A stretch of 64,000 bases of DNA, from positions 14,531 to 78,530 of IMG/VR virus record IMGVR_UViG_3300012922_000007, one strand, 5' to 3'. The stretch comes from a virus. The notes below the pieces were generated by a model. The model was not told the DNA's origin. It ran no database searches and saw only the letters and a program-made list of their open reading frames with translations. Positions 3,282 to 59,529 of this stretch are shown here, piece after piece (within the stretch, counting starts at the first letter, position 1; the number at the start of each line of letters is the position of its first letter). The translations under genes were made by a program, and so were the position numbers.

Positions 3282-3413
3282 ATGAAAGACACGATTGTGT
3301 ACATACTTGTAGCGGGTTTGTTGCTCCCTGTGTATACCATTGCTGCACTTGGTTTATGGGCTCTGGTTATACATGTATACACGGAACTATTTGTTCCGAG
3401 GTCAAAACCATGA
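3282..3413 (+). CDS. small membrane peptide (43 aa)
   Basis: own translation MKDTIVYILVAGLLLPVYTIAALGLWALV...; GAGGT RBS. Confidence 0.55.
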   Translation: MKDTIVYILVAGLLLPVYTIAALGLWALVIHVYTELFVPRSKP

Positions 3414-3580
3414 AACTAAACACTTTGCTCGGATTGTTAGCGGCAGTTTGCCTTGGATTAACCCTGTCCAACGTCGCCTGCCTAATCGCGTATACCGATC
3501 TGGACAAGGAATATTCACAGGAAATGGGCTTGCGGGATCAATCTGATTCAATGCTTAGAGCTTGTCAGGCGGGGAATTAA
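3410..3580 (+). CDS. small signal-anchored protein
   Basis: MKLNTLLGLLAAVCLGLTL; GAGGT RBS; ATGA overlap with the previous ORF. Confidence 0.55.
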   Translation: MKLNTLLGLLAAVCLGLTLSNVACLIAYTDLDKEYSQEMGLRDQSDSMLRACQAGN

Positions 3581-9074: not shown

Positions 9075-9509
9075 ATGATTATTTACCTCGTATCAACAGG
9101 AGATTACAGCGACTATCATGTAGTCGGTGCCTTTTCTACGAAAGAAAAGGCTTTAGAAGCCTTTCCATCAAAGGATTATGGGATAGAGGAATACGAGCTT
9201 GACAAGCCAACCGTTGTATTGAAACGAGTTTACTCGGATGTAATCGCTATTAGTGACGGTTCTAGATGGATTGGCTCTACTCCAGATCACGACGGAACAA
9301 CACATTTTGCCTCGAAATTGGACGAGGTTGATATAGGATTTAGAGGGAAATATGACTTTTTGCAATGGGACTGGCCCAAAAGTCATGGAACTAGCCACGT
9401 TTATGCCAAATCAGTGATTAGCCAAGAACACGCCACAAAGTTAGCTGCTGAAGGTCGTCAAGCTTTCCTTAGAAATGATAAGGCTTTATCGCACAATGTA
9501 GAGATTTAG
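9075..9509 (+). CDS. conserved phage hypothetical protein
   Basis: N-terminal IYLVSTGDYSDYHVVGAFSTKEKA..IEEYELD motif recalled from phage proteins. Confidence 0.7.
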   Translation: MIIYLVSTGDYSDYHVVGAFSTKEKALEAFPSKDYGIEEYELDKPTVVLKRVYSDVIAISDGSRWIGSTPDHDGTTHFASKLDEVDIGFRGKYDFLQWDWPKSHGTSHVYAKSVISQEHATKLAAEGRQAFLRNDKALSHNVEI

Positions 9510-9559
9510 ATTCAAAATCGAGGGCATCTATACGTTGTCCTCGTTTGTGCATCTAAATC
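9503..9559 (+). other. long interrupted hairpin upstream of the Sm-like gene (possible processing site)
   Basis: GATTTAGAT/ATCTAAATC and CGAGGGCA/TGTCCTCG arms. Confidence 0.5.
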
Positions 9560-9576
9560 AGTTCGAGGAGAAAATA

Positions 9577-9843
9577 ATGAAAAAGCTAGTACAAGTCACC
9601 GAGGTAGAAGGCGAAGGACTTATGGCTCTTATGGGCCAGAAAGTGCTTCTTCTGTGTGCAAACTACTTTTACACTGGAAAATTGATCGGGGTTAACGACA
9701 CTTTTGTTCAACTTGAAGACCCGGCAGTAGTATACGAGACTGGTTCGTGGTCGGATAGTAAATTTAAAGATGAACAGAAACTTCATACCAAAACATTCTA
9801 TATTTCGACCTCTGCTATTGAATCGTTTGGAGTTTCAAAATGA
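9577..9843 (+). CDS. Sm/LSm(Hfq)-like fold protein
   Basis: GAGGAG RBS; LxxLMGQKVLL..YFYTGKLIGVNDTFVQLED (Sm1-like) and FYISTSAIESFG (Sm2-like). Confidence 0.65.
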   Translation: MKKLVQVTEVEGEGLMALMGQKVLLLCANYFYTGKLIGVNDTFVQLEDPAVVYETGSWSDSKFKDEQKLHTKTFYISTSAIESFGVSK

Positions 9844-10109
9844 AGGATTTACGAAATAAGTGTAAGAAGTTATACAGGTCCTGGTCCTGGTCCTGGTCCG
9901 GGTCCTGGTCCTGGTCCAGGTCCGGGTCCTGGTCCAGGTCCGGGTCCAGGTCCGGGTCCGGGTCCAGGTCCTGGTCCGGGTCCTGGTCCGGGTCCAGGTC
10001 CGGGTCCGGGTCCTGGTCCGGGTCCGGGTCCAGGTCCTGGTCCGGGTCCTGGTCCGGGTCCAGGTCCGGGTCCTGGTCCGGGTCCGGGTCCGGGTCCGGG
10101 TCCTATTAA
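9840..10109 (+). CDS. Ser-(Trp/Gly/Arg) dipeptide-repeat protein
   Basis: ATGA-coupled to the Sm-like gene; 13-aa basic leader followed by (S-W/G/R) repeats. Confidence 0.5.
   Translation: MKDLRNKCKKLYRSWSWSWSGSWSWSRSGSWSRSGSRSGSGSRSWSGSWSGSRSGSGSWSGSGSRSWSGSWSGSRSGSWSGSGSGSGSY
9877..10104 (+). repeat. tandem hexamer array (GGTCCD)38
   Basis: 38 units with invariant GGTCC; the sixth base is T x13, G x18, A x7, never C. Confidence 0.97.
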
Positions 10110-10124
10110 AAAAATCTTCAACAT

Positions 10125-10148
10125 TACGAGCCTAGTGATAGGCTCGTA
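10125..10148 (+). terminator. perfect 10-bp hairpin with GTGA tetraloop
   Basis: TACGAGCCTA-GTGA-TAGGCTCGTA; U-tract is weak, so a stabilising hairpin is also possible. Confidence 0.55.
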
Positions 10149-10178
10149 TTGATGCAGATTTAATTCGGAGGTTAAAAC

Positions 10179-11811: not shown

Positions 11812-11895
11812 TCCAGAATCCGGACTCGATAATCATGTCATTGGCCTCGTATTGGGCCAATGGCGAGCTTATCGGCTCAAAGTAAGGAGGAAATA

Positions 11896-13551
11896 ATGCC
11901 AGCAAATAGGGCTAACTGCGGTTGTGCTTTGACCTCGGGTAACCCAGCTTGTACTGCTTGTATGCGATGTCCCGCGTGCTGCCGCAGCTATGGAGAGTGT
12001 CTTACATGCACTGGTCCATCCTGCGTAGATTCGAGACCAAGGCTTACGTATCGCCGAAGTCCGGATGTATCAGCAGAATTTAGAGCTTGTCAATCTTGTG
12101 GATTTTGTTCTGCGTGTTGTTCTCAGAGGAATAGGTGCCACCGGTGCACAGGGTGTCACAGTAACTACGAAAGAACTCGTATTTGCGCAAATTGTAATAT
12201 GTGTACAAATGGTTGTTGTCAATGTTGGAGTTGCGCGGGATGTCAGGTGAGGAGACCCCGAGGCAATCGCCAATGTCGTCAATGCGCTACTTGTATGCAG
12301 TGCTGTCAGTGTAGAACTTGTGAAAGATGCGAGGATCAGCGACGAGTCATTTGGTGTCCAGATTGCGAATATTGTTCTGGACATTGCAATGATCCGGAAA
12401 ATCATACTGAAAGCTTTGTTGATCTAAGGCCGGAGCATCTTCGACCTAGATCGGCAATTATTGCTTTCCAAAAACGTGCGTTAAAGTTCTGGAACTCTGA
12501 ACCTACGCAGTTCAAGAGAAATCCACTTAAACGCCACATTAGTGTTGAAATCGAGTGCGACAAGGTTAATACGTCCGGAAACGGAAAGAAATTGGCCTCG
12601 GTTCTCAAGAAATGGTCAGACTCTGTAGTGACAGACGGAAGTCTTTCCGGGGACTATGCACACGAGATCAATACCTCACCCTCGAATGGTGATCTATTCG
12701 TTAACCATATCGAACAGATTACTGAAGCCTATAAAGACATAGATGGCAAGTGCTCAGTGAAGTGCGGCCTCCACGTCCATGTAAATTGCCAAGATTTGAA
12801 GTTCTATGATCTTCGCAAGGTCATTTTGCTGTATGCTAGGATTGAACGAGCGTTGTTCGAACTATGCAGGCCAGACCGGGTTAATGCCCAGTATAGCCGT
12901 CTGTGTGGCAAGAACTATGCCAACATGTCTCCAAATCCGGAAGAATTTCGCAGACAGCTGTTCGGGAAGTTCTACTGTGATTCGGAGAAACTTGCAGTTG
13001 CTAGACCAGATAAGAACGTTGGCCTCGCGATTAAGAAGAAGAAAGAGGGCAAATATGCTGGTGTTAGGTATCGTGCTCTCAATCTTCACAGTTACTTTCT
13101 AAGGAAGACTGTGGAATTTCGGCATCATGAAGGGAGTGTTGACCCGGAAGTAATCATTAACTGGGCCGAGGTTTGTGCTTACATAATCGAAGCCGCGAAT
13201 AAGCTATCCGAGGCGCAAATTCGAGCTTTACCAGATACCTCTCGCCAAGCTTTGTCCACAATTCTACCAGAGAATCTGAGAGAATGGTGTGACAAGATTT
13301 GGGAGAAATCTGTTGTAAAATGGGAGGAAGTGGAAATCAGCAACAATAGACCAGATCTTCCCCTCGTTCCAAAGGAGGAAAAACAGTTGGATAGACGAGC
13401 ACTTCGCAAGAAACACAAGGCCGAAAGGAGAGCCAAGGCTAAAATTAATGAGTATAGGCTGATAGCTTTGCGAGCCATTATTTCAGGTCAGAGGTTGACT
13501 CCGCAACCGGTTGCTGCACAGTCCGGAACTGGACAATCAACTCCATTTTGA
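11896..13551 (+). CDS. putative amidoligase (COOH-NH2 ligase) with Cys-rich N-terminus
   Basis: SVEIE, DGSL, EINTSP, CGLHVHV, RYRALNL and TVEFRHH motifs; AGGAGG RBS. Confidence 0.88.
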   Translation: MPANRANCGCALTSGNPACTACMRCPACCRSYGECLTCTGPSCVDSRPRLTYRRSPDVSAEFRACQSCGFCSACCSQRNRCHRCTGCHSNYERTRICANCNMCTNGCCQCWSCAGCQVRRPRGNRQCRQCATCMQCCQCRTCERCEDQRRVIWCPDCEYCSGHCNDPENHTESFVDLRPEHLRPRSAIIAFQKRALKFWNSEPTQFKRNPLKRHISVEIECDKVNTSGNGKKLASVLKKWSDSVVTDGSLSGDYAHEINTSPSNGDLFVNHIEQITEAYKDIDGKCSVKCGLHVHVNCQDLKFYDLRKVILLYARIERALFELCRPDRVNAQYSRLCGKNYANMSPNPEEFRRQLFGKFYCDSEKLAVARPDKNVGLAIKKKKEGKYAGVRYRALNLHSYFLRKTVEFRHHEGSVDPEVIINWAEVCAYIIEAANKLSEAQIRALPDTSRQALSTILPENLREWCDKIWEKSVVKWEEVEISNNRPDLPLVPKEEKQLDRRALRKKHKAERRAKAKINEYRLIALRAIISGQRLTPQPVAAQSGTGQSTPF

Positions 13552-14151: not shown

Positions 14152-14173
14152 ATTAAACTAACGGAGGATGTAT

Positions 14174-15538
14174 ATGTGCGGTATTTTTTGTGTTGCAAAT
14201 AAAGAGGGTTACGAGCCAAAATTGGATATAGCCATTCCAATTATGGCATTGATAATGGAAGAGAGGGGTAGACACAGTTTTGGCCTCTCTGATGGTGTGG
14301 AAATTATCAAAGACACGGGGCCAATTTCTTCTGGATTGACTGTAAACATGTTTACGGGAAAGAAGGAGCTAATAGCCCACACTAGACACGCCACTCACGG
14401 TTCTCAAACTAAACAAAACGCGCATCCTTTTGAATTCGGAGAAGGAGAAAATAAAATTATTGGTTTGCACAATGGAGTATTAGTTAATCACGATAAGATG
14501 AACGAAGAACACAACAGAAAATTCGAGGTTGATTCTTGTCACATATTTCAGCATATTCTTGAAAACAAACCACTTAAGGACATCCAGGGCTACGGTGCGG
14601 TAGCTTTCTTCCAGCGTGGTAAAATGTATCTTGGTAGATTTAATGGAGGCCAGCTGGCTATTGCAAGAACAAAATTTGGAATAGTTGCGGCTTCGACTCA
14701 AGAAGCTGTTTACAAAGCTTTAAAAATATCCGGCTTGGAATTGGAATGTTTTTATGAGGTTCTGGATGAAAAACTTTATATGGTAGAAGAAGGTCTTTTA
14801 TTTAACACTGACAGAGATTTCCGCTTCGGCTCTCGCTACCAGCCCATAACCAACAACTATCACGGACATTACGAACCCCATGATTGGAGGCAAGGTTCGA
14901 ATTACTATGAAGGAGCACGAGGCCGATGGATCAACAATCACTGGGAAGAGGGTAAATGGATCAACAAAGATACATTTGTCCCAGGAGAATGGAAAACTGG
15001 TAAATTCACTCCGAATGACGAGGGCAAGGCTCAATTATTTCTCCTCGGAGATGGTAAATCTAAGAAGGGAAAGCAGAAGACCAAGAGGGCTGTCGCTGAC
15101 TCAGATGCAGATAACTGCTGTCTATGTCAGTGTTTGTTCTCAGTCGAGGAAGAAACTTGGGACAGTCCCTTCGGTGAGTTATGCGATAGCTGCATGATGA
15201 CTTGTTTTCGGGCTCAAATGGAAGAGGAGACCGAGGTCATTGAACTTGAAGCAACTATCGAGAACTCAGTAGGCGAGGGTATCCATAAACTGGACGATCC
15301 GTTTATTTCTACAACAGTCCGAGACTTTCTAAAGGAGCTAACAGATAAAGAAGCAGCAAGCAATAGATGCAATAAAGAGACAATGCAAGGATCGTGTGAC
15401 GAATGTGCAGTTACAGTTAGCAACGATGATAAGATATTTGTTGATAAAGCCGACGGCCACATAGTAAAATGGATTTTGTGTGTTGGATGTCATCATCAAC
15501 TAACAACTCCATATAACACAGAATTTCCAATCTGTTAA
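14174..15538 (+). CDS. class II (Ntn) glutamine amidotransferase
   Basis: MCGIF N-terminal nucleophile, RGRHSFG, HTRHATHG, NAHPF, HNG, VDS; GGAGG 6 nt before ATG 14174. Confidence 0.9.
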   Translation: MCGIFCVANKEGYEPKLDIAIPIMALIMEERGRHSFGLSDGVEIIKDTGPISSGLTVNMFTGKKELIAHTRHATHGSQTKQNAHPFEFGEGENKIIGLHNGVLVNHDKMNEEHNRKFEVDSCHIFQHILENKPLKDIQGYGAVAFFQRGKMYLGRFNGGQLAIARTKFGIVAASTQEAVYKALKISGLELECFYEVLDEKLYMVEEGLLFNTDRDFRFGSRYQPITNNYHGHYEPHDWRQGSNYYEGARGRWINNHWEEGKWINKDTFVPGEWKTGKFTPNDEGKAQLFLLGDGKSKKGKQKTKRAVADSDADNCCLCQCLFSVEEETWDSPFGELCDSCMMTCFRAQMEEETEVIELEATIENSVGEGIHKLDDPFISTTVRDFLKELTDKEAASNRCNKETMQGSCDECAVTVSNDDKIFVDKADGHIVKWILCVGCHHQLTTPYNTEFPIC

Positions 15539-33131: not shown

Positions 33132-33534
33132 GAGTGACCCGCATCGAAAACCAAATTATTTTCCATGGAACGAAGATGATTTTAGTGGAAACATAAAAGT
33201 TAGATTTATGACACCGGCACAAAGATGGATGTACCGAACTTTACTCTGCAGTGCATTTTTTGAATCCACGAGACCTCATTTACCAGACGACGATTCTGTT
33301 CTTTGGATGATTGCCGGGTGTGAGAGTCAAGAACAATGGAATGAAAATAAAGAACCGGTTCGTGCAATGTTTTTTCAGATACGAGACGGTAGAAGAAAAT
33401 TGTTGGGCCATCCTCGACTCGTAAGTGATTGGAATGCCTTGGTTAAAACACGTTTGGATTGGATAGAAAAATCTCGAAAAGGAGGGGCCGCTTCTGCTCA
33501 AGCAAAGGTTGAGCAAAGGTCAACCACCGGTTAA
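33115..33534 (+). CDS. replication-initiator-like wHTH protein (YdaU/DUF1376-like)
   Basis: YFPWNEDDF..KVRFMT..RWMYRTLL, HPRL, SRKGGAASA. Confidence 0.65.
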   Translation: MAGISKSDPHRKPNYFPWNEDDFSGNIKVRFMTPAQRWMYRTLLCSAFFESTRPHLPDDDSVLWMIAGCESQEQWNENKEPVRAMFFQIRDGRRKLLGHPRLVSDWNALVKTRLDWIEKSRKGGAASAQAKVEQRSTTG

Positions 33535-33600
33535 CCAAAGGTCAACCATTTTCAACTAAGGTAAGTAAAGAGAAGTATAAGTGTAAGTAAAGTGAAAGGA
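33502..33600. repeat. iteron-like 11-bp repeats plus an A-rich tract (candidate replication origin)
   Basis: GCAAAGGTTGA GCAAAGGTCAA CCACCGGTTAA CCAAAGGTCAA, followed by an AAGTA-periodic tract. Confidence 0.55.
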
Positions 33601-49471: not shown

Positions 49472-50091
49472 TGGCTTCAATAGGGATAGATCTTGATGAT
49501 TGTCTTGCGGATTTTATGTCTTCCTTCTCTAAAATAAGCTATAAGCTTTTTGGGAGGCCGGAGCCCGGAATCTTGCCGGTGGACTGGGAGTGGTCCAACT
49601 TTGATCTTACAAAGGAACAGTTAAACGAGGCGTGGAACAAAGTCCGAGAAACATATCTCTTCTGGGAGAATCTTGGGCTGGAACCGGGAGTAACTCCCCA
49701 CAATATTTATGACCTCGAAGAACGTCACGACGTTTTCTTCATTACTGCCAGAGTTCCATCCAGGGGAGATTCTATTAAGAATCAGTCTTGCAACTGGATC
49801 AGGGATAATATTGGCATAGAAAACCCCACAGTATTTGTTACTACTAATAAAGGCCCTCTTGCGGCAGCGTTGAAGCTAGATTATTTCGTGGATGACCGCC
49901 CTAAGAACTGTTTAGAGATCCTTGAGGCCGTGCCTACGTGCAAGATTTACCTCAAGGATTCCAGTCATAATCAACCGTTCAGCGATCCTCGAATTCCTCG
50001 AATTAAAGATATGAATGAATTCGTGGACATTGTTAAGGAGTTAGAGAAAGAGAAAAATATAGAAAAATTAGTCGAACGTATTATCTCGTAA
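49471..50091 (+). CDS. 5'(3')-deoxyribonucleotidase (HAD, NT5C-like)
   Basis: IDLDDCLAD, ITAR, K, FVDDRPKN. Confidence 0.88.
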   Translation: MASIGIDLDDCLADFMSSFSKISYKLFGRPEPGILPVDWEWSNFDLTKEQLNEAWNKVRETYLFWENLGLEPGVTPHNIYDLEERHDVFFITARVPSRGDSIKNQSCNWIRDNIGIENPTVFVTTNKGPLAAALKLDYFVDDRPKNCLEILEAVPTCKIYLKDSSHNQPFSDPRIPRIKDMNEFVDIVKELEKEKNIEKLVERIIS

Positions 50092-53000
50092 GGCCCATCG
50101 ACTTGAGACGGTGATAGTTTTCATCACTCCCTCGTTCGGAAGGGCTTAGTTTCTGTACATAAGACCTGGATTTCTTAAGTAGATCAGGGAGAAGTTTCTG
50201 TTTTTCTTCCTCGGTACTGACGTTCCAAACGTCGAGGAAGTCACCGATATTAAGACGACCCCCTTTGGCTCTAAGAATATCCTCGCGGCCCATTGTTAAC
50301 ACTTGCCTGCGTTCGGTAGGCGTGAACTCATGTAGATCAACGGAATGCCCTGAACGAATTTGATCGGCAGCATCAAGGACTTTATGATGACGTTCGACTT
50401 GAGACGGATCGCTAATACCAGCAGGGAGACGATCATTGAGTCTCTGACTAGCTAGTTTCTCCGCCGCCGTCCTGTTGGCAGAGGGAGAAACTCCAAATCC
50501 TCTCGCTATACTAGTAGCGAAATCATCTTCCTGACTTCCGGTTTGAAACTTTCTAGAAATATCCGGAACAAAGTACTTAAGAAACTGAGATCCTCCACCT
50601 TGTAGAGAAATAGGTGATACGTTGCGAATTGCGTCTCCGATAAGCTGTGTATCACTCATCTTCTTGCCTTGGTCATTTCGCCCGTAAAGAACATCGACCC
50701 CGGTTTTAACAAGCGGATTCAAACGGTTGCGAACGAAAGACTTAGGATCATTTAAAGAATTCCAGACATCCTCTGGCATTGTGCGCATTCCCCAGACTTT
50801 CTTTTCATCAGGGCTGACAACTCCGAACGGATGATCCATGTGCAGTTGTCCATGAAGCAACAGATTAGTAGCCTGCGCCACCAGCATGTTGTACATGGCC
50901 ATTCTAGCAAAGCTTCTAGCAACAATTGACCCCCCTGGCTTGAAGGCTGACATTGTGAAGTCTATTTGTGATCCAGAAAAATCAGGAGCAAGCGCCAACA
51001 TCCGCAGAAAATCGACGGTATTCGCGCTAACTCCAAGAGCCTTCCAATTCAATCCACCGAACGTCGCGTTGGTTAAACGGGCTGCAGTAGTATAAGTCTG
51101 GTGTTCACTCCAATTCGGATTTTGTTCTCGAAGATCACCGGCCATCTTTTCGAAGGCAACGGACTTCAACCGAGGTAACCAGTTTCCGAATAGATGGTCC
51201 TCGGCTTTAGACTGTATGTCTTTCAAATATGGAATTTTCCCAATAAGTCCACCACCGCTGGCTTCGCTATCCGCAGCCGCTCGGTACGACGATCGTTCAA
51301 TGTGATCACCTAGTAATACGAGGCCGTGTGCAGTTCCCTTGGTTGCAGCTAACCCCGCAGGATCAATTTCCTCCGGATGGAAGATTTCATGCAGACTAAG
51401 TCCAGTTTGCAAACCTCGTAGTGCTTCCGTAGCATAGTGGAATGGTGACAGAGATAACAAAGTCTTTTTGGCAAACTGAGATGCTCCGAGGACGGAGTTC
51501 ATCCACGGAGTTCTGCGAACCCACGATGAATCATCGAACGTCTGATTAACTCGTTCTATGTGATCCGGATGAAACATCAAAGCAGTTTTCTTACGAACAG
51601 GCAATTCTACGGGATTTCCTTCTCCGTCTAGCAATACTCCACCATCTGGTCCTTTAGCGAATCCTACATCTGTAACTCTGAAGCGTCCAAAGGTTTTAGG
51701 ACCTTCTACGTAATCGGTCACGTCGAGGTAAGGCTTGCCCTCGTGGTAAATAATGTGGTCAGAATCGGGGTCAATCGCCGATGTATCGTCAAACCGAATC
51801 CCTCGCCTCGCAACAGTTCTTCCAGATTCTATAGTCTGTGGAATATTCCGGATTCTGGACGGTTCGATAGCGACTGGACGCCCGTCTGTGTCGTCGTGTC
51901 GAATTAACTCGTTCTCTGCCTGGACAATACCGTGCGCCGCCCCCATACTACGCTCGTAGTTAGATGCTGCTTCGACCATTCCAATCTGCTTAGGAACATA
52001 TCCCTTCTTCAATGCATCTACCATATTATCGAATCTTCTGGTCTTTAGTTGTCCTGGTTTCTTCGTAGCACGAAGCGTGCCCTCCGATGGACGGAAGGCG
52101 TTTTGTGTCTCGTCCTCGGGATTGTATTGCCTATTGCCAGCATAGTTCTCGCGAGCTTCAGCATCAGGATGTACGAGGCCCGCGCTCTTGGCTTTCTCCC
52201 AATGCTGGTCATAGAACGGACGAAATTCCTCGGCCATGTCTCGAAGTTCTCTAGGTAATCCGAGGGCAATTTCTATATTGCGAAGCTGCTGAGCTTTGTC
52301 CTTGGGACTAATATTATCCAGATTCTGGACTTGTTCTTTAAAGTCTCGAAGATTCTCTAGAGTATTTGGAGAACCTTCTGGTCTCGGCTCGGCTTCGTTT
52401 TTTAGTCCACCCGCCTCGTGATACCATTTCATGGCTACATCGAGATCATGCGGTGTTACTTCAAATCCAGTTGCCTTCGTGACTTCCTGAGCATATTTCT
52501 CTAGAACAGGTTGGTACTGATCTTCCATCTTATTAGCACGTAGTTTGCCCTGCTCTATCTCACTATGCTGAAGATTGTAGGCATCAATATCCGGTGTGTG
52601 ATTATATTTGGACGCTCCCAGTTTAGTTACTAAATGATTAACAGAAGCCGCTGCAAAGACTAATCCTAGCCCTGCTGTAGTAATATGTTCCTCGGCTGCG
52701 TCCCAATCTCCGGTCTTGATATCGGATTGAATCATTGGAACTTGTGCCATGAATCCTCGGATCTGATCCAAGGCGAACCCACCTGTAGCAACCTTATCGA
52801 TAGTTCCCGCCCATTTTCCTACCTGTGCTGCTTCCTCTGCTCCAAACTTCTGCGATACCCAATTGAGTACATTCGAACCAAAGGTTTCCGCTGACGCAAC
52901 CCCTTCTCCAGCAAATCCCGCTTCGGCAGCTTCTGCTAGTGCCGCCTCGCCTGCAGTTGCAATAGACGATGTCCCGGCAGTAGCAAGCATTAGTGCGAGG

Positions 53001-53452
53001 CTAACCGGACTAGTCAACGAAGAAACGAACTTCTCTACACCCTTCTCAATCCCTCCCGCTCCTTCCCTAAATTCTGGAATCCCAAAGTACGTAGAAATAG
53101 GACGAGTGAGAATTGATTCACCAGTTCCAGATCTGTCTTCATAGCTAGGAACCGGTTTACCGAGTTTTTGTTCTTGAGTCTCCGGTTGTTCCCCCGTGGG
53201 AGCTTCTTGAATCTTGGAATCAGGACGAGGGAAAAATTCCTCGAAAGGATTATTGTAAGATTGAGCAGGGGCTGGCGCAGAAGTCTGTGCAGTAGGAGAA
53301 GCAGGAGTTTGACCTTGGGCAGGGAAGAACGAAGAGAACGGATTGTCTCCTGCATTAGAGGCAGCAGGTGCAGAGACGGGTTCTGGCGCAGCCATTTGAG
53401 GTTGCGCCGGAGTTGTTTGAAAATATTCGTCAAACGGGTTGTTTTGTGGCAT
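50081..53452 (-). CDS. large internal virion/DNA ejection protein
   Basis: 1123 aa; repeated NPFxxFF N-terminus; last gene of the virion operon. Confidence 0.6.
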   Translation of the reverse strand: MPQNNPFDEYFQTTPAQPQMAAPEPVSAPAASNAGDNPFSSFFPAQGQTPASPTAQTSAPAPAQSYNNPFEEFFPRPDSKIQEAPTGEQPETQEQKLGKPVPSYEDRSGTGESILTRPISTYFGIPEFREGAGGIEKGVEKFVSSLTSPVSLALMLATAGTSSIATAGEAALAEAAEAGFAGEGVASAETFGSNVLNWVSQKFGAEEAAQVGKWAGTIDKVATGGFALDQIRGFMAQVPMIQSDIKTGDWDAAEEHITTAGLGLVFAAASVNHLVTKLGASKYNHTPDIDAYNLQHSEIEQGKLRANKMEDQYQPVLEKYAQEVTKATGFEVTPHDLDVAMKWYHEAGGLKNEAEPRPEGSPNTLENLRDFKEQVQNLDNISPKDKAQQLRNIEIALGLPRELRDMAEEFRPFYDQHWEKAKSAGLVHPDAEARENYAGNRQYNPEDETQNAFRPSEGTLRATKKPGQLKTRRFDNMVDALKKGYVPKQIGMVEAASNYERSMGAAHGIVQAENELIRHDDTDGRPVAIEPSRIRNIPQTIESGRTVARRGIRFDDTSAIDPDSDHIIYHEGKPYLDVTDYVEGPKTFGRFRVTDVGFAKGPDGGVLLDGEGNPVELPVRKKTALMFHPDHIERVNQTFDDSSWVRRTPWMNSVLGASQFAKKTLLSLSPFHYATEALRGLQTGLSLHEIFHPEEIDPAGLAATKGTAHGLVLLGDHIERSSYRAAADSEASGGGLIGKIPYLKDIQSKAEDHLFGNWLPRLKSVAFEKMAGDLREQNPNWSEHQTYTTAARLTNATFGGLNWKALGVSANTVDFLRMLALAPDFSGSQIDFTMSAFKPGGSIVARSFARMAMYNMLVAQATNLLLHGQLHMDHPFGVVSPDEKKVWGMRTMPEDVWNSLNDPKSFVRNRLNPLVKTGVDVLYGRNDQGKKMSDTQLIGDAIRNVSPISLQGGGSQFLKYFVPDISRKFQTGSQEDDFATSIARGFGVSPSANRTAAEKLASQRLNDRLPAGISDPSQVERHHKVLDAADQIRSGHSVDLHEFTPTERRQVLTMGREDILRAKGGRLNIGDFLDVWNVSTEEEKQKLLPDLLKKSRSYVQKLSPSERGSDENYHRLKSMGLTR

Positions 53453-53466
53453 TCACTATCCCTTGA

Positions 53467-55122
53467 CTAAATGGTTGATTCTTCTTCCTCTTTAGGCTTT
53501 ACACCAACAAGAGGACCTGTTATATCTGTAAACTTTTGAAACCCTTTCTTAAGAGTGTCAAGGGTACTTGGTTCGGCGTATGGATCAAATCCGTGCGATA
53601 TCGCTAGAGAAACGGCTTCCTGAGGAGATTGAGCAGATTTGGCAAACTGCGCTTTCTGTTCTTTCGTCATAGGCGTTCCAGATCTAGGAGCTTTAGGCAG
53701 ATTTTTCTGTAATAGCTCTTGTTGCTGACGAACTGCTTTAGCTTTCAGATCACGTTGTTCCTTTTGTTTACTTTGAGCATCACCAACGGCTTTTGCTACA
53801 GTTGGATTGATATTGCTTACTGCTTGGATGAATTCTTGGTTCATAGCAGAACGCTGACCTTGTAGATCAGACACGTCCGCACCAGGGTCTGCTTTCTGAC
53901 GCTCTTTAATTGCATCATCAATACCTTGGACATTCTGTTTATATAGTGTAGCCAGCGCGGTCTGACCATTCTTCTCGGCTATATCCACAGACTTCTGAGC
54001 CAATGCATCCTGTCTAGCAGCTTGGTGTTTTTCCAGATTAAGCTTACCTTGTTCCATGGCTCGTTTCTGAGCATCGTCAGCAAGCTTCATAATATCTGTC
54101 TGAGATAGTTGAACGCTTTCTTCGAGGCCGTCGGTATAGACTTTCGATCCAACTGCTTTATTGACCTCGCCCTTAGTCATCGTGTGCATCTGTGTAAGAC
54201 TGTTAATAGGCTGGTCGATTAGACGAACTGTAGTGAAATCGAGGGGATCGACGGGTTTTCCTGTTTCTTTATCTATCCAGTTTCCGGTATCGTCTACGTG
54301 TGCTGTCGTAGGCATAGATGTGGTGTAAACTGGAACACGCACATGCTGGCTATCTCCTGCAACTGCAAGATTAGGATTCTTCTTTAGCGCAGCTTCCAAT
54401 GTCCTCGCATTAGCCGCTTGACCATTAATATTCTTGCCATCAACTACGATCTGAGCATCTTTGCCACCTGCAGAATAAGCAGCAGCAGCCATAGATTGAT
54501 TTACAGAGTTCACGTGATCAATATTATCTGCAGGCATGTGATGAATTAGATAAAGACTGTGTGCAGTCTGAATGGTCAGCCCCGCAGTAGCCGCAATCGC
54601 ATGTTGGTGCTCATCAGAATACTTCTGCATCTTAGCAGTTTCTTCGGCCTTCTTCTGTCTTAACTGAGTATTCTGAATCTCTTGCTGCCGTTGTTTTTCA
54701 TTCTCATCGAGACCGCGCTGAACTGTCGAAGACGCTCCCTTAGCAAAGCCCTCGCCAAATCCGTGGGCTTGTGTTCCTGCTCCTAGAATTCCGCTAAGCA
54801 GCATTCCTCTAAAGAGTTGACCTGGCTTCTGTTCAACTGGAACTTCTTTAACAGATCCGTCAGGCTGTTCCTGCCATTGAGTCTGAGTTCCCATAACAGC
54901 TTTAACCAGACGACCAACCATGGAATGATGAGCTTCATCAATCTGTTGAGCTTGGTTGGGTTGAATCTGGGATTCCGAGGGCATCGGCAGCATACTGGAT
55001 GTAGGGTCCGGATTCTGGATATTTATTGAAGGAGTTGTAGGAGGCAATAATAGTCCTGGAGCCGGAGTTCCAACACTGGCCTCGGGTTGCAATTGATCTG
55101 GCAAGGGATTAAACTGAGCCAT
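53467..55122 (-). CDS. internal virion/ejection protein
   Basis: Gln/Ala-rich helical protein with a Gly-rich hydrophobic patch; position in the operon. Confidence 0.55.
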   Translation of the reverse strand: MAQFNPLPDQLQPEASVGTPAPGLLLPPTTPSINIQNPDPTSSMLPMPSESQIQPNQAQQIDEAHHSMVGRLVKAVMGTQTQWQEQPDGSVKEVPVEQKPGQLFRGMLLSGILGAGTQAHGFGEGFAKGASSTVQRGLDENEKQRQQEIQNTQLRQKKAEETAKMQKYSDEHQHAIAATAGLTIQTAHSLYLIHHMPADNIDHVNSVNQSMAAAAYSAGGKDAQIVVDGKNINGQAANARTLEAALKKNPNLAVAGDSQHVRVPVYTTSMPTTAHVDDTGNWIDKETGKPVDPLDFTTVRLIDQPINSLTQMHTMTKGEVNKAVGSKVYTDGLEESVQLSQTDIMKLADDAQKRAMEQGKLNLEKHQAARQDALAQKSVDIAEKNGQTALATLYKQNVQGIDDAIKERQKADPGADVSDLQGQRSAMNQEFIQAVSNINPTVAKAVGDAQSKQKEQRDLKAKAVRQQQELLQKNLPKAPRSGTPMTKEQKAQFAKSAQSPQEAVSLAISHGFDPYAEPSTLDTLKKGFQKFTDITGPLVGVKPKEEEESTI

Positions 55123-55525
55123 TATACTTCTCCTTAGACGAATCCAGGAAATAACTTAGTGGAGTGTCTTTGCTGATATCTTGATCCTTAAGCGCCCGAC
55201 GTAGGAAAGAGACTACGTTGCTAATTCCGCCTGGTTCCTTGATCCCATAGACGCCAAGCAGATTGGTAAGTGTATCTGTGGGCTTTAACCCCGCTCTGGA
55301 ATTGCCTTCGAGCTTAAGCTGAGCATCGAAGCAGGCAGCCTTGTAGCCACTAAGCCACGAGGTAAATACACGACGACCTTGTTCGTCAGTCTCGTGTTTA
55401 CCTGGACGAGCGAAGCTTCGAATCATTAGGGGATTACGAAGGTTGTAACACTGCGATTCCGGATCGTTCGCACCGTTTACTTTGGCAAGCGCGTCAACCA
55501 CGGCTTCAATTCTATTAACTGGCAT
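55109..55525 (-). CDS. putative virion-associated lysozyme-like protein
   Basis: RNPLMIR..GRRVF.S..SGYKA..TLTNLL..Y resembles the NNPGNIR family. Confidence 0.4.
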   Translation of the reverse strand: MPVNRIEAVVDALAKVNGANDPESQCYNLRNPLMIRSFARPGKHETDEQGRRVFTSWLSGYKAACFDAQLKLEGNSRAGLKPTDTLTNLLGVYGIKEPGGISNVVSFLRRALKDQDISKDTPLSYFLDSSKEKYNGSV

Positions 55526-55540
55526 AATTTCTCCTAGCCA

Positions 55541-56290
55541 TTAAGTTTTAGGTGCTCCACCTGAACCGGGGAGTTTGAATCCGCCTGTAGCCCAACCACC
55601 AGCAACCGATCCTGCGACACTTCCAAGAATACCACCTACAACCCCTGCCGTAGTTGGCTCCGTTGCCATAGCGTGTTGTGCCTCGAACGTGTCCCTCGCA
55701 CCGGACAACGCCTGGGAGCTATAAGCAGTAGGATCTAGAATCTGTGCGGACTTCTGACCAATTCCTACAGCGTTCAGATAGTTCTCGCGACCTGTTTGCC
55801 ATCCTGCAGTAGTAATACCCAACTGTTGCGAGGCTTCTTGCGCGGCTGCTCGATTAGCTGCTTCAGCTCGTAGAGTCGCAGCAGTTCCAGAGGGGAGGAA
55901 CTTGTTCCCTCCCCCCACTGCCGCCAGCGCTTCGCCAGTGGCCTGCCGAGCCATCTTATAAGCTCCTGCTGTTCCCTCGGAAGCTTGTGTGCGAAGTGCG
56001 GCATCTTGCTGCGCCGAGAACCCGTATTGACTCGGTCCTGCAGCAATCGTAGCTTTAATACTTTTATCTATGTTATCGAGGATAGCTTGCTGGCCTGCGA
56101 AAGCTGTGCCGAAAGAACCCTTAAGAGTATCAGTCATCTGCTGGAGATTGTTGGCCGCGTTCTTTTCCTCGCCAGTAACTTTACACAGGGCCACAGGACC
56201 CTGGTGTTCTACTGACTCACGATAATCGGCTGGTTTTCCAGTCATAAAATCTTCCATCGAATTCCAGACAGCTTTGGTTGTTATAATCAT
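55541..56290 (-). CDS. DNA pilot/ejection-type protein
   Basis: Ala/Gln-rich with a Gly-rich hydrophobic C-terminus. Confidence 0.5.
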   Translation of the reverse strand: MIITTKAVWNSMEDFMTGKPADYRESVEHQGPVALCKVTGEEKNAANNLQQMTDTLKGSFGTAFAGQQAILDNIDKSIKATIAAGPSQYGFSAQQDAALRTQASEGTAGAYKMARQATGEALAAVGGGNKFLPSGTAATLRAEAANRAAAQEASQQLGITTAGWQTGRENYLNAVGIGQKSAQILDPTAYSSQALSGARDTFEAQHAMATEPTTAGVVGGILGSVAGSVAGGWATGGFKLPGSGGAPKT

Positions 56291-56700
56291 TGTTTTTCCA
56301 AGTCCGAAATACGGACACGGTACACTGGAACATTAATTCTTTCAAATAACTGATTCTCGGCAAAGGTCGAGGTTCTTTCGTCTGATCCTAAGAAGTAAAT
56401 CTCCCCACGACCTTGCAAGTGACACGAAGTCACTAGTGCCTGAACAATTTCTTTCAAGGCTAGAGCTTGTTTCCTGTCCGAGACCTCGGGATTAACACAC
56501 ACCGACTCCATCATTAGGGGAGTCTGGACAGGCATGAATAGTATTACGCCGTCCTCGGAATCATACGCTGCAAGGGTAAAGGTCGATGGGTATTCAATTA
56601 CTTTTGGATCTATCTTATTTCTTTCCAGATTCTGGACAGCCCATTTCGTACATTTGTCGATGTCACGTTTTTCAGCCTGACGCACAAATATATGCTTCAT
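56287..56700 (-). CDS. GNAT-like virion assembly protein
   Basis: VRQAEKRDI N-terminus; position between tail and ejection genes as in podoviruses. Confidence 0.4.
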   Translation of the reverse strand: MKHIFVRQAEKRDIDKCTKWAVQNLERNKIDPKVIEYPSTFTLAAYDSEDGVILFMPVQTPLMMESVCVNPEVSDRKQALALKEIVQALVTSCHLQGRGEIYFLGSDERTSTFAENQLFERINVPVYRVRISDLEKQ

Positions 56701-56961
56701 TTATATTCCTAGTTTCTTAAATACAGTGTGTAGCAGACCAGATATTACTCCGGCTCCGCCTATCGCAACCCATTTCACCTTCTTGAGATCAGATATTTCT
56801 TTTTTCATCTTGTCCATTCCTCCGTCTGTTTCGAAGAACGGAACTACATTGGTTTCTAGAGCGGTTGATCGTTGCCTCAGCTCGGTAAATCCCTCGTTTA
56901 TCTCTTTTCTTGCATCGCGCAGTTCTATTAGAATAAGTTCATTGATGTTTACATCTGACAT
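56701..56961 (-). CDS. small coiled-coil protein with C-terminal TM (holin/XhlA-like)
   Basis: KWVAIGGAGVISGLL tail. Confidence 0.45.
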   Translation of the reverse strand: MSDVNINELILIELRDARKEINEGFTELRQRSTALETNVVPFFETDGGMDKMKKEISDLKKVKWVAIGGAGVISGLLHTVFKKLGI

Positions 56962-56968
56962 AAGGGGC

Positions 56969-58153
56969 CTATTTGTATTCTATTACGGCGTAACAAAAAG
57001 TAATGCTTGGAGTGCTGCTTCCTGTAGATTTATTATCGCCGGTTCCAAAGATAGCAACGGGGGAATTACCACCAATTAAGTTAGTACTTATTGTAGCAAC
57101 GTTTGTTCCATTTATATAAAAATCGACCGACGTTGCTGTTGAATTAGGGAATAATTGAAATACTGTAGACGGGGCTGCAGAAAAAGCTACACCAGTATTT
57201 ACTACGGTTTGAGCAACGTTACTAGTCCCTGTAACAGCCTTCCAAGTAGTATCGGTTGTAGTGCTAAATCTAAACCCAATGTAACCTGCGTTAGGAGTAT
57301 CCGTCGCAAATAGATTGCCGTTTAGGGCTGTTGCAGAAGTCGTTATTCCTACCCAATAACGAAAAGCGGTCGGCCCCGCCATCGCTTGACGAAAGGTATA
57401 TCGACGAGAAGAAAGAAGAGTACTTCGAACAACGGTGTTTACGGTGGAATCTAGCCCTGCTCTCCAAGAACAATCGGTATTGGGGGAAGAGCCCGCGCTT
57501 CCGGTGTACGTACTGCAAGTTCCTTCACTAGCAACGTTTCCGGCAATATGAGCTGTAGTTGCCGTGCTAACGGTTTGAATTCCTTCTATTGCCACTCCGA
57601 AAGGATTGCCTGTAGATCCATCACAATACAGAAAGGAAGTTCCAAGAGACGGAAGGGTTGCTGCAGTAATTCCTCCAGAAGCGGTTATTGTTGTTGCGCC
57701 GCCAGAATTAGAAAGAGTTATATTTGTTCCGGCTACGAGATTTTCAAGAACTTGGTTACTGTTGTTTACTCCGTTAGTCTGTAATGTAATTCTGGGAGCC
57801 GTAGGTTGAGGAACAGGTTGGTTAGGAATCCAGGTGCTTACGTTAAAAGTTCCAGTATCGGGCACTGTTTCGAATTGTGGAGATTCCCATGCTGTTGTTC
57901 CGTCCTGTCGAAACGCCTCGATAATATAGTAAGCACCAATTGGAAGTAGTGGATCTGTGGACCAAACTTGCTGGCCAACAGACACATTTCCGGAATTGTC
58001 GAGTTGAATCCTAACGGGAATTCCTGCTGCAATTTGTGTCGCTGTTGAAGGGTCCTGCTCGTCGTGAGACAAGGTCATCGTTAGATAACCAGAGTCAAGG
58101 ATCTCCCCAGAGCTGCTCTGAAATTTCCCACCACTAAGAGTTACTAACGCCAT
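56969..58153 (-). CDS. tail fibre/receptor-binding protein
   Basis: N-terminal anchor domain shared with 58897-59529; AGTNITLS linker; beta-rich C-terminus. Confidence 0.65.
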   Translation of the reverse strand: MALVTLSGGKFQSSSGEILDSGYLTMTLSHDEQDPSTATQIAAGIPVRIQLDNSGNVSVGQQVWSTDPLLPIGAYYIIEAFRQDGTTAWESPQFETVPDTGTFNVSTWIPNQPVPQPTAPRITLQTNGVNNSNQVLENLVAGTNITLSNSGGATTITASGGITAATLPSLGTSFLYCDGSTGNPFGVAIEGIQTVSTATTAHIAGNVASEGTCSTYTGSAGSSPNTDCSWRAGLDSTVNTVVRSTLLSSRRYTFRQAMAGPTAFRYWVGITTSATALNGNLFATDTPNAGYIGFRFSTTTDTTWKAVTGTSNVAQTVVNTGVAFSAAPSTVFQLFPNSTATSVDFYINGTNVATISTNLIGGNSPVAIFGTGDNKSTGSSTPSITFCYAVIEYK

Positions 58154-58162
58154 TTGTTATCC

Positions 58163-58894: not shown

Positions 58895-58896
58895 AA

Positions 58897-59529
58897 TTAA
58901 GGAATACTTATGTTCAAAGCGACGTTTATTCTTGTAACTGTAGAAACCGAATTTAACGAAAATTGTATTTCGTCACCCGCCACAATTGCAGTTGAACCCC
59001 AACCTGATAAAGAGAGGTCTTCATTTTTCTGAGACGCGGTTAAACTTGGTTTATCACTTCCAGCGATGCTTACAGTCGCAGGAAATCCGGCGTATGACGA
59101 CCTGAGAACATCCACTACACATGAACCACTTACGTCTGCTGTAATTACCCATCCCGTCAAAGTACAGGGAAAAGGAATTGATAATTGACCTTTTGCTCCT
59201 GTTGAGGGAACCGCACCACCGCCGTCGATTGTATAAGAGATTACTGCTGTTCTAGACACTGTAGTTCCTTCCCATACAAAGACTCCGTTAACATCATAAA
59301 CTTTAAGATCGTAGAAAGTACCCGAGGGCGTTAGCTGGTCGCTTGACCATAGATTGAATGCAACCGTCGATCCAGAATTATTAAGTTGACCTCGGACTTT
59401 TAACCCCGCAGTAACCTGAGAACCATCCGAACTTACAGCATCCTCGGACAAAGTTGCGATCACGTATCCATTGGATACAGGAGTTCCGTCCGGATTCTGG
59501 AAAATCATCGAGACGTTTGTAGGGGGCAT
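58897..59529 (-). CDS. tail fibre-like protein
   Basis: shared anchor domain; IDGGGAV.STGAKG..IPFPCT.TGW C-domain. Confidence 0.6.
   Translation of the reverse strand: MPPTNVSMIFQNPDGTPVSNGYVIATLSEDAVSSDGSQVTAGLKVRGQLNNSGSTVAFNLWSSDQLTPSGTFYDLKVYDVNGVFVWEGTTVSRTAVISYTIDGGGAVPSTGAKGQLSIPFPCTLTGWVITADVSGSCVVDVLRSSYAGFPATVSIAGSDKPSLTASQKNEDLSLSGWGSTAIVAGDEIQFSLNSVSTVTRINVALNISIP

What the first reader, a model, noticed from the sequence alone, without database searches (positions are those of the whole stretch)
9503..10152. Sm/Hfq-like gene coupled to a 38-unit three-letter hexamer array, bracketed by hairpins
Seen: a long hairpin (9503-9559), then an 88-aa gene with Sm1/Sm2-like motifs, then an ATGA-coupled ORF whose body is (GGTCCD)38, then a perfect 10-bp GTGA hairpin (10125-10148). 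Five of the six bases are invariant. The sixth spells TTTG TTAGTAGAGG ATGTGAGGTG GATGTGAGTG GGGT, never uses C, and contains a duplicated 9-unit block. The ORF reads Ser-(Trp/Gly/Arg) using only TCC for Ser, so the DNA/RNA period is conserved more tightly than the protein requires. Known: Sm/Hfq proteins form 6-7-subunit rings that bind about 1 nt per subunit on the proximal face. Inference: this is a self-contained two-part system. The Sm ring may bind or thread the hexamer-periodic RNA, or it may chaperone an RS/WS low-complexity peptide prone to condensate or amyloid formation. The array could also act as a slippage-diversified decoy against host defence, since every unit contains GGWCC and every unit junction forms CCNGG, both restriction-type sites. 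I recall similar small-protein + dipeptide-repeat pairs in uncultured phages but know of no assigned function.
Basis: partly seen in the sequence, partly recalled or inferred. Interest (0 to 1): 0.88.

Follow-up and report, generated by a model that had tools for sequence, protein, structure and literature searches.

The report
Phage Sm-like protein with Ser-X repeat peptide
An uncultured phage carries a self-contained two-gene module, a small Sm-fold (RNA-chaperone-like) protein followed by a translationally coupled gene encoding a fast-evolving peptide made almost entirely of Ser-(Trp/Gly/Arg) repeats; hundreds of phages share it and no database or paper I could search describes it.

Summary
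Only the unit count of 38 could not be checked against reads.

- **Sm fold:** the 88-aa protein has an Sm/LSm fold (AF2 pLDDT 92.5; Foldseek and VIA top hits are all Sm/LSm, Z up to 10.3). No Pfam or PHROG family matches it.
- **Array always follows:** every evaluable homologous locus has a period-6 array after the gene. Units differ between loci (GGTCG/C/A/T-N or GGAGC-N), but all read Ser-(Trp/Gly/Arg) in one frame.
- **That frame is translated:**
  - It has an ATG at the upstream stop (ATGA in 45 of 76), a leader, and a stop just after the array.
  - Stop-creating changes are avoided in it (0 of 28, P=2.6e-5) but not in the Gly-X frame.
  - Arg uses only AGG or only CGG in 66 of 72 arrays.
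- **Superfamily:** a homologous ~112-aa class (HHalign 96.5%) carries the same kind of peptide with a different leader. Leader class tracks partner class (P=3e-10), which suggests direct binding.
- **Not conserved:** RNA self-pairing, restriction-type sites, hairpins and neighbouring genes.

Function is inferred, not shown: probably an Sm-like hub docking cationic Trp/Arg-rich disordered tails. Earlier scan notes cover only this same stretch, not other DNA.

The parts
9503..9559 (+). Long imperfect hairpin between the stop of the upstream gene (9075-9509) and the cassette. It is probably an RNA-level boundary or stability element.
   Evidence: -24.2 kcal/mol, z -5.9. Not conserved in relatives. 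Contigs of the source sample branch at 9507, suggesting a mosaic junction.
9565..9570 (+). Shine-Dalgarno-like GAGGAG, 6 nt before the ATG of the Sm-like gene.
   Evidence: Read directly from the sequence.
9577..9843 (+). Gene for an 88-aa Sm/LSm-fold protein (partner class 1, motif NYFYTGKLxGVN...LEDPAIVYETG...IESFG). Its C-terminal codons carry the GGAG (9829-9832) and the ATG for the next gene.
   Evidence: AF2 pLDDT 92.5. Foldseek top hits are all Sm/LSm at probability 1.0. VIA Z reaches 10.3, and the top ~30 hits are Sm/LSm proteins or Sm-fold subunits. About 1,192 homologues at 90% clustering and 525 clusters at 50%. No Pfam or PHROG family.
9840..10109 (+). Repeat-peptide gene (89 aa): basic leader MKDLRNKCKKLY (9840-9875), then 38 x (Trp/Gly/Arg)-Ser, then Tyr and a stop. 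Net charge is +12. It is translationally coupled through ATGA.
   Evidence: The same ORF architecture appears in ~all relatives. Stop-creating changes are avoided in this frame, P=2.6e-5.
9877..10104 (+). Homogenised hexamer array (GGTCCD)38, the DNA of the repeat body. Position 6 is the first base of the Trp/Gly/Arg codon and positions 3-5 are the Ser codon TCC.
   Evidence: Array turnover is faster than the flanks in near-identical phages.
10113..10160 (+). Hairpin 4 nt after the stop of the peptide gene. The core is a 10-bp stem with a GTGA tetraloop at 10125-10148. No U-tract follows, so it is not a canonical intrinsic terminator.
   Evidence: -23 kcal/mol, z -7.3. Not flagged as a terminator. 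Not conserved in relatives.

Best explanation
This is a mobile, phage-specific two-gene module.

Shown:
1. Gene 1 encodes a small protein with an Sm/LSm fold.
2. Gene 2 starts at or beside gene 1's stop codon and is translated. Its product is a short leader followed by 10 to about 45 (X-Ser) dipeptides with X = Trp, Gly or Arg in roughly equal thirds. It is cationic (median net charge +10) and very rich in Trp.
3. The repeat DNA evolves by gain, loss and shuffling of whole 6-nt units. This keeps five positions identical within an array. Selection on the peptide keeps exactly three unit types, one each for Trp, Gly and Arg.
4. Two homologous classes of gene 1 each pair with their own leader class on gene 2.

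Inferred:
- The leader docks on the Sm-like protein. The basic leader may meet the acidic EVEGEG N-terminal segment in the 88-aa class; the amphipathic MNAAxLRAGFD leader may meet the extra N-terminal helix in the ~112-aa class.
- If the Sm-like protein forms the usual 6-7-mer ring, the complex is a hub displaying several disordered Arg/Trp 'sticker' and Gly/Ser 'spacer' tails.
- Such a particle would bind and bridge RNA or DNA, or condense with it, early in infection.
- This would be the same design as Sm proteins with repeat tails in cis, but with the tail supplied as a separate, rapidly adjustable polypeptide.
For: - Fold.
- Array follows the gene in every evaluable locus found by protein similarity alone.
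- All five unit types read Ser + NGG in one frame.
- That frame has an ATG, a leader and an immediate stop in ~all loci, whereas the Gly-X frame has no start and contains stops.
- In a frame-independent set of 87 arrays there is 1 stop in +f3 against 8, 18, 17 and 85 in other frames.
- G>A changes that would create TAG or TGA in +f3 are absent (0 of 28; 31% expected; P=2.6e-5), while control changes show no such bias.
- Degenerate paralogues keep the Ser periodicity and stay open.
- 70 of 72 arrays hold Trp, Gly and Arg at about one third each in random order. Arg is AGG-only or CGG-only in 66 of 72.
- ATGA overlap in 45 of 76, and leader class against partner class gives Fisher P=2.8e-10.
- Partner classes are homologous (HHalign 96.5%, E 1e-9; cross-hit E 4e-7).
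- No other conserved neighbour.
- Precedent for Sm rings with tandem-repeat disordered arms: Borg aaTR-Sm proteins (PMC9879509, section 2.4.1).
- Phage LSm-like early proteins are known in T4 (PMC12152347).
Against: - No direct evidence of expression, of peptide-partner binding, of ring formation or of nucleic-acid binding.
- The canonical Sm2 'RG' and the loop-3 Asn of the uridine pocket are not evident in the family consensus, so RNA binding may not be the ancestral mode.
- Within arrays, rare deviations do not show the excess at synonymous sites expected of a long-standing coding sequence (unit positions 1-5 = 53, 13, 22, 23, 13). I attribute this to very recent homogenisation, but it is unexplained.
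- Some Ser-X peptide genes occur in tandem sets, or without a visible Sm-like gene directly upstream.
- Composition alone cannot separate nucleic-acid binding from membrane activity or decoy functions.
Confidence: 0.42

Rival explanations
1. Toxic or membrane-active peptide plus keeper. The Arg/Trp-rich (X-Ser)n peptide is an amphipathic beta-strand peptide (Ser on one face, Trp/Arg on the other) that damages the host envelope or another host target. The upstream Sm-like protein binds its leader as a chaperone or antidote that controls timing, in an arrangement like an antitoxin-toxin operon.
For: - Composition (Arg 16%, Trp 15%, net charge about +10) resembles Arg/Trp-rich antimicrobial peptides (my own knowledge).
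- A small upstream gene translationally coupled to the downstream one is the typical type II toxin-antitoxin layout.
- Leader/partner co-variation.
- Multi-copy peptide genes per partner.
Against: - No signal peptide, no hydrophobic segment and no link to lysis genes.
- Half of all residues are Ser and a sixth are Gly, which is unusual for membrane-active peptides.
- Lengths up to 95 aa or more, with free variation, fit a polymer-like role better than a defined toxin.
Confidence: 0.18
2. Decoy or sponge for a host factor. The disordered repeat peptide saturates or blocks a host protein, such as a protease, a chaperone, a nucleic-acid enzyme or a defence sensor. Rapid length and sequence change would reflect an arms race.
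For: - The array differs between phages with identical flanks.
- The module sits in early regions of many unrelated phage backbones.
- The order of X residues is random.
Against: - Composition is tightly held at one third each of Trp, Gly and Arg in 70 of 72 arrays. That looks like a physicochemical requirement rather than an escape race.
- No host target is known.
- The role of the Sm-like partner would be unexplained.
Confidence: 0.14
3. RNA-level element. The Sm-like ring binds the hexamer-periodic transcript, for autoregulation or as a sponge or guide RNA, by analogy with phage VIPR repeat RNAs. Under this reading the ORF would be incidental.
For: - Sm/Hfq proteins bind periodic RNA (my own knowledge).
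- GG is invariant in every unit.
- The window's array folds strongly.
- VIPR shows that phages use repeat RNAs with fixed GG and variable letters (bioRxiv 10.64898/2026.04.26.720920).
Against: - Stops are selectively avoided in frame +3.
- ATG, leader and stop are conserved.
- Five different unit types share only GG plus the encoded Ser-X.
- A and C are interchangeable and mutually exclusive at the variable site.
- Strong RNA self-pairing is limited to the rare GGTCC type.
- VIPR has period 5, two variable bases, a RAMP/RRM protein and intergenic RNAs.
- Autoregulatory binding in addition to translation is not excluded.
Confidence: 0.07
4. Read-through fusion. The array is read in the Gly-X frame, (Gly-Pro)38 in the window, as a C-terminal tail of the Sm-like protein after suppression of the single TGA, like the Arg-Gly tails of eukaryotic SmD1/D3.
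For: - In the window the Gly-Pro frame continues gene 1 across one TGA, and the variable base is silent there.
- The array is in phase with gene 1 in 71 of 87 loci.
- Most relatives would read (Gly-Arg)n.
Against: - The phase follows automatically from the ATGA overlap.
- Two or three stops intervene in several loci.
- The frame contains internal stops that are not avoided (GGTTGA x5, GGTTAG x3).
- The second residue would be Arg, Pro, Gln/His, Leu or Ala depending on the locus.
- No tRNA genes and no sign of recoding in the window.
Confidence: 0.03
5. DNA-level feature or artefact: a restriction-site decoy, a recombination or packaging signal, or an assembly artefact.
For: - GGWCC occurs 38 times and CCNGG 37 times in the window's array.
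- Contigs often break at these arrays.
Against: - The sites are absent from the dominant unit types.
- Arrays recur at the same place in hundreds of independent assemblies and carry coding constraints.
Confidence: 0.02

Closest known systems
Borg-encoded Sm ribonucleoproteins with amino-acid tandem repeats (aaTR-Sm; Schoelmerich et al. 2023, PMC9879509)
   Same: An Sm-fold protein of a mobile element is combined with a perfect, fast-evolving nucleotide tandem repeat whose unit length is divisible by 3. The repeat encodes a low-complexity, probably disordered arm.
   Different: In Borgs the repeat is fused in cis at the N-terminus, units are 4-17 aa, the elements are archaeal, and the Sm1/Sm2 motifs are canonical. 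Here the repeat is a separate, translationally coupled polypeptide with its own leader, the unit is a dipeptide (X-Ser), the elements are phages, and the Sm sequence motifs are divergent.
Eukaryotic SmD1/SmD3/SmB and LSm4 with C-terminal Arg-Gly dipeptide-repeat tails (my own knowledge)
   Same: An Sm core plus a cationic dipeptide-repeat tail. The window's family would give the same overall design if the peptide docks on the ring.
   Different: Those tails are covalent, consist of Arg-Gly, and are methylated for SMN binding. Here the tail is a separate gene with Ser at every second residue and 15% Trp. The Gly-Arg reading of the DNA is the wrong frame.
T4 GoF / MotB.1 / Frd.2 LSm-like early proteins (Kim et al. 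2025, PMC12152347) and Pfam Phage_Hfq (PF23874)
   Same: Small phage early proteins with an Sm-like fold and no clear function, thought to act on RNA.
   Different: There is no sequence match: no Pfam hit at E<=1, and Phage_Hfq is only a weak language-model neighbour at 0.79. None of them is described with a coupled repeat-peptide gene.
VIPR systems (phage RAMP protein plus YNNGG-repeat guide RNAs; bioRxiv 10.64898/2026.04.26.720920)
   Same: A phage-encoded small nucleic-acid-binding protein sits next to short-period tandem repeats with a fixed GG and variable letters.
   Different: VIPR has period 5 rather than 6, two freely variable bases rather than one with three classes, an RRM/RAMP fold rather than Sm, and noncoding intergenic RNAs rather than an ORF under selection against stops.
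Arg/Trp-rich antimicrobial peptides and sticker-spacer (Arg/aromatic plus Gly/Ser) phase-separating low-complexity domains (my own knowledge)
   Same: The repeat body is made of only Arg, Trp, Gly and Ser.
   Different: The resemblance is in composition only. No homology, no experimental link and no known phage example.

Membership tests
Sm/LSm/Hfq superfamily | Sm fold: a short N-terminal helix followed by a strongly bent five-stranded antiparallel beta-sheet | tested here: met
   AF2 pLDDT 92.5, with a helix at 16-18 and strands at 22-27, 30-39, 43-52, 66-77 and 81-86. The Foldseek top 50 hits are almost all Sm/LSm chains, probability 1.0, TM 0.52-0.64. VIA-align Z is 10.3-8 for Sm/LSm proteins or Sm-fold subunits and ~7 for Hfq.
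Sm/LSm/Hfq superfamily | Match to the curated sequence families (Pfam LSM PF01423, Hfq, Phage_Hfq PF23874) | tested here: not met
   No Pfam family at E<=1. No PDB sequence match with the family profile at E<=10. The relation is seen only at fold level.
Sm/LSm/Hfq superfamily | Conserved Sm1/Sm2 nucleotide-pocket residues (loop-3 Asn, loop-5 Arg-Gly) | tested here: inconclusive
   The family consensus has G-K-L-x-G-V-N (Sm1-like, Asn40 >=90% conserved) but no Arg-Gly before the last strand; Glu82 is invariant there. This was judged by eye without a structure-based alignment.
Sm/LSm/Hfq superfamily | Assembly into 6- or 7-membered rings | not testable with these tools
   Only monomer prediction is available. 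Natural tandem-domain relatives exist (P0122, P0134, P0190). The P0122 model shows two Sm-like barrels, but pTM is 0.58 and no interface read-out was available.
VIPR (Vipr RAMP protein plus vrRNA) | RAMP/RRM-fold protein; YNNGG (period 5) repeats with two variable bases; noncoding RNA | tested here: not met
   The protein has an Sm fold. The period is 6, with one variable base in three classes. The repeat lies in an ORF where stops are avoided.
In-ORF perfect tandem repeats creating disordered regions (Borg-type aaTRs) | Perfect nucleotide repeat with unit length divisible by 3, inside an ORF, evolving faster than its flanks | tested here: met
   Unit of 6 nt with positions 1-5 invariant. It lies inside the ORF 9840-10109. 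L010 and L011 have identical flanks, but their arrays differ by 4 units and at many variable sites. Disorder was not computed and is inferred from composition.
Sm proteins with covalent Arg-Gly tails (SmD1/D3/LSm4 type) | Repeat tail translated in frame as part of the Sm polypeptide | tested here: not met
   1-3 stops lie between the gene and the array. The Gly-X frame has internal stops that are not avoided. The peptide has its own ATG and leader.
RiPP precursor peptide | A leader-core peptide next to a conserved modifying enzyme | tested here: not met
   A leader plus repetitive core is present. However, no gene other than the Sm-like one recurs within about 4 kb in 87 loci.

The most novel reading that the evidence does not exclude
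Phages have split the 'Sm ring with low-complexity tails' design into two genes. The ring subunit recognises a short leader, and the tail is a free-standing, hypervariable Ser-(Trp/Gly/Arg) polymer whose length and sticker pattern can change within a few generations by unit slippage. Assembled, the multivalent particle would drive RNA or DNA condensation, forming a phage-made membraneless compartment or an RNA trap early in infection. That would make it the first viral, tunable, trans-assembled sticker-spacer scaffold in bacteria.
Probability: 0.2. Interest if true: 0.88.

Novelty: new variant of a known kind. Interest (0 to 1): 0.74.

Why it matters
This is a widespread, wholly unannotated phage module. 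It is easy to miss for four reasons: the peptide is filtered out as low complexity, gene callers hesitate between frames, assemblies break at the array, and the only GenBank relative does not annotate the gene.

It offers three things:
1. A clean natural example of how concerted evolution of a 6-nt unit and selection on the encoded residue together shape a sequence with five frozen positions and one variable one.
2. A new family of phage Sm-fold proteins with a built-in, co-varying peptide partner. This makes the long-standing question of what phage Sm-like early proteins do directly testable through binding, leader-swap and localisation experiments.
3. A minimal four-residue (Ser, Gly, Arg, Trp) polymer that could be useful as a tunable disordered module.

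Tried and rejected
1. **Gly-Pro read-through fusion.** This was my first idea. I rejected it because of intervening stops, internal stops and locus-specific second residues.
2. **Flanking hairpins as a conserved part of the module.** They are real in the window but absent in 15 relatives.
3. **Conserved RNA structure of the array.** Only the GGTCC type folds better than shuffled sequence.
4. **Synonymous-site excess within arrays.**
   - A translation-selected set gave Ser-codon deviations of 47 > 21 > 11 for positions 3, 2 and 1, but that set is biased.
   - Frame-independent sets gave no such excess, so I count this test as inconclusive.
   - Pooling all arrays mixes in unrelated Gly-X proteins and giant-virus hits.
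5. **Reads.** All runs are Logan contigs. Those of X1 break at the array, and X2, X18 and the RNA run X19 laid nothing. There is therefore no evidence on unit number, heterogeneity or transcription.
6. **Database searches.**
   - DNA search of cultured and GenBank phages found nothing.
   - The protein search found one uncultured record in which the gene is not annotated.
   - A search of 185,579 species genomes found one hit, a Dependentiae MAG contig that is probably a phage.
   - A HMMER search with the repeat peptide gave 5,516 word-sharing candidates, none of which scored, because of the low-complexity correction.
   - The Atlas was unavailable for the peptide.
7. **Tandem-domain fold (P0122) as a proxy for the ring interface.** pTM was 0.58 and the interface could not be read.
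8. **Literature.** Peptide strings gave 0 papers, 'dipeptide/hexanucleotide repeat + phage' returned only C9orf72 work, and a search on tandem repeats in phage genomes gave nothing relevant.
9. **Promoter and terminator scan.** Nothing above chance near the cassette.
Full report
**1. The observation**

The window is part of a 78.5-kb IMG/VR phage contig. It encodes a DNA polymerase, a primase-helicase, an amidoligase and a glutamine amidotransferase.

- A hairpin lies at 9503-9559 (z -5.9).
- An 88-aa ORF lies at 9577-9843, with a GAGGAG ribosome-binding site.
- A second ORF lies at 9840-10109, and its ATG overlaps the first gene's TGA.
- The array is 38 hexamers with GGTCC invariant and a sixth base of G18/T13/A7.
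- A 10-bp stem with a GTGA loop lies within a longer hairpin at 10113-10160 (z -7.3).

Logan contigs of the probable source sample end at 9867 and restart at 10112. The flanks are therefore confirmed, but the exact unit count is not.

**2. Which frame?**

The hexamer reads Gly-Pro in the frame of the upstream gene, across a single TGA, with the variable base silent. It reads Ser-(Trp/Gly/Arg) in the frame of the ATGA-coupled ORF. Relatives decide between these.

Protein similarity alone found 31 IMG/VR loci. Every locus with enough downstream sequence has a period-6 array directly after the gene, and many contigs end there. The units differ between loci: GGTCGN (commonest), GGTCAN, GGTCTN, GGTCCN and GGAGCN. 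In the Gly-X frame these give Gly-Arg, Gly-Gln/His, Gly-Leu, Gly-Pro and Gly-Ala. In the other frame all give Ser (TCN or AGC) followed by NGG, which is Trp, Gly or Arg.

In nearly every locus the Ser-X frame has three features:
- an ATG at or next to the upstream stop;
- a short leader;
- a stop within 0-6 codons after the array.

The Gly-X frame has no start codon and carries stops in several loci.

**3. A frame-independent test**

I selected 87 distinct arrays only because they lie directly after an Sm-superfamily gene.

| Frame | Stops inside arrays |
|---|---|
| +1 | 8 |
| +2 | 18 |
| +3 (Ser-X) | 1 |
| -1 | 17 |
| -2 | 85 |
| -3 | 0 (cannot reach a stop in one step) |

G-to-A changes at unit positions 1 or 2 occur 28 times. 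They never follow a T, where they would create TAG or TGA in +3, although T is 31% of variable bases (P=2.6e-5). Control changes to T or C follow T in 7 of 28 cases. In the Gly-X frame, stop-creating changes (GGTTGA, GGTTAG) are not avoided. The peptide frame is therefore under selection to stay open.

The classical synonymous-excess test was inconclusive. I attribute this to how recently the arrays were homogenised.

**4. Array dynamics**

- Two phages with identical flanks (L010 and L011) differ by four units and at many variable sites.
- Across 72 arrays of 12 or more units, the order of Trp, Gly and Arg is indistinguishable from random.
- 70 of the 72 hold all three residues, at 0.32/0.34/0.34.
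- Arg is encoded only by AGG (22 arrays) or only by CGG (44), with both in 6.

This is what unit-level turnover (concerted evolution) plus selection for three amino-acid classes predicts. Redundant unit types are lost, while functionally distinct ones are kept.

**5. The partner protein**

The family alignment gave an AF2 model with pLDDT 92.5. Foldseek against the PDB returns Sm/LSm chains almost exclusively (probability 1.0). An independent aligner gives Z up to 10.3, with the top ~30 hits being Sm/LSm proteins or Sm-fold subunits and Hfq at Z~7.

No Pfam, PHROG or PDB sequence match exists. The family has about 1,192 members at 90% clustering and 525 clusters at 50%. It is almost absent from cellular genomes: the single hit is a MAG contig that carries the same cassette. 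Longer family members are N-terminal extensions or tandem duplications of the domain.

**6. A wider superfamily**

Sixty-two of those arrays are small Ser-X ORFs. Their upstream genes fall into one BLAST cluster containing the 88-aa class and a ~112-aa class (FIRTVT..TGxL..LExAAWIADTGRF..EVEP, alignment A2). The two classes are homologous: HHalign gives 96.5% probability, E 1e-9, and the A2 profile finds the window's own gene at E 4e-7.

Leaders differ by class. The 88-aa class has basic leaders such as M-R-x-R-K-Q-K-Y. The ~112-aa class has MNAAxLRAGF(D/E)-type leaders. The association is strong (24:3 against 2:27, Fisher P=2.8e-10).

Some phages carry three to five tandem peptide genes with one leader type. 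No other neighbouring gene is conserved. The pair is thus a self-contained module, and the leader probably contacts the partner.

**7. What is not conserved**

- The two hairpins.
- RNA self-pairing, which is confined to the GGTCC type.
- GGWCC and CCNGG sites, which occur only in the GGTCC type.

These argue against the RNA-threading and restriction-decoy ideas.

VIPR systems are the closest RNA-level analogue. They differ in period, in the number of variable bases, in protein fold and in being noncoding.

**8. Mechanism**

- **Shown:** an Sm-fold protein plus a translated, coupled, cationic (median +10), Trp-rich (15%) Ser-X repeat peptide of 19-95 aa, with co-varying leaders.
- **Inferred:** the leader docks on the Sm-like protein. 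If that protein forms a ring, the complex displays several Arg/Trp sticker and Gly/Ser spacer tails able to bind and bridge nucleic acid.

Precedents for Sm cores with repeat tails in cis are the Borg aaTR-Sm proteins and eukaryotic SmD1/D3/LSm4 (my own knowledge). Phage LSm-like early proteins of unknown role exist in T4.

Rival functions remain open: a toxic or membrane-active peptide with a keeper protein, or a decoy for a host factor.

**9. Verdict**

The module is real, widespread and undescribed in the sources I could search. Its function is unknown, but it can now be tested directly.

Noticed in passing
window 11860-13551 and 14168-15538 (+): An amidoligase-like gene (phrog_2443, E 9e-24) and a glutamine amidotransferase-like gene (phrog_14519) lie 2-5 kb downstream of the cassette. 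This may be a peptide- or nucleotide-modification pair. It is not conserved next to the cassette in other phages.
   Followed up: partly
window 9507 (left edge of the upstream hairpin): Contigs of the source sample branch here. One continues leftwards with unrelated sequence, and depth changes from 14 to 5.7. This suggests co-existing phage variants with a mosaic junction at the cassette boundary.
   Followed up: no
P0122, P0134, P0190 (metagenomic proteins): Natural tandem duplications of the Sm-like domain in one chain (186-218 aa). They may be pseudo-dimeric ring building blocks. The AF2 model shows two barrels, but the interface is uncertain.
   Followed up: partly
L019 1506-2004 and 3455-3882; L020 1928-2240 and 3237-3446: Clusters of three to five overlapping Ser-X peptide genes share the leader MKITQNRKPKW / MQITQYRKPKW. 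A sigma-factor-like gene (region-4-like ...SESRISQRLKKIQ...) lies between the cluster and the Sm-like gene. L019 also has a decayed array with stops in all frames at 3282-3546.
   Followed up: partly
L045 (IMG/VR contig 3300037171_000075), minus strand: Three consecutive large arrays (41, 39 and 11 units) encode peptides with the leader MNPAIQAW. No Sm-like gene is directly upstream in the stretch held.
   Followed up: no
loci L154-L272 (GGTCCN scan): Most (GGTCCN)6 matches in IMG/VR, several of them in giant-virus MAGs, are not Ser-X ORFs (only 3 of 121 qualify). They are probably Gly-Pro-rich stretches of larger proteins.
   Followed up: no
window 33498-33548: A short tandem repeat of period 11/22 (TCAACCAAAGG-like, 4.6 copies) lies in the replication-gene region.
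   Followed up: no
window 50081-63998 (-): A block of large minus-strand genes (1123, 551, 394 and 741 aa), presumably structural, has no PHROG match at E<=1e-5. The phage lineage is poorly represented in reference sets.
   Followed up: no
L033 = GenBank MW202825.1 5395-5830: In the only GenBank relative, neither the Sm-like gene nor the peptide gene is annotated. Its array is degenerate and mixes the Ser codons TCG, TCA and TCT.
   Followed up: yes
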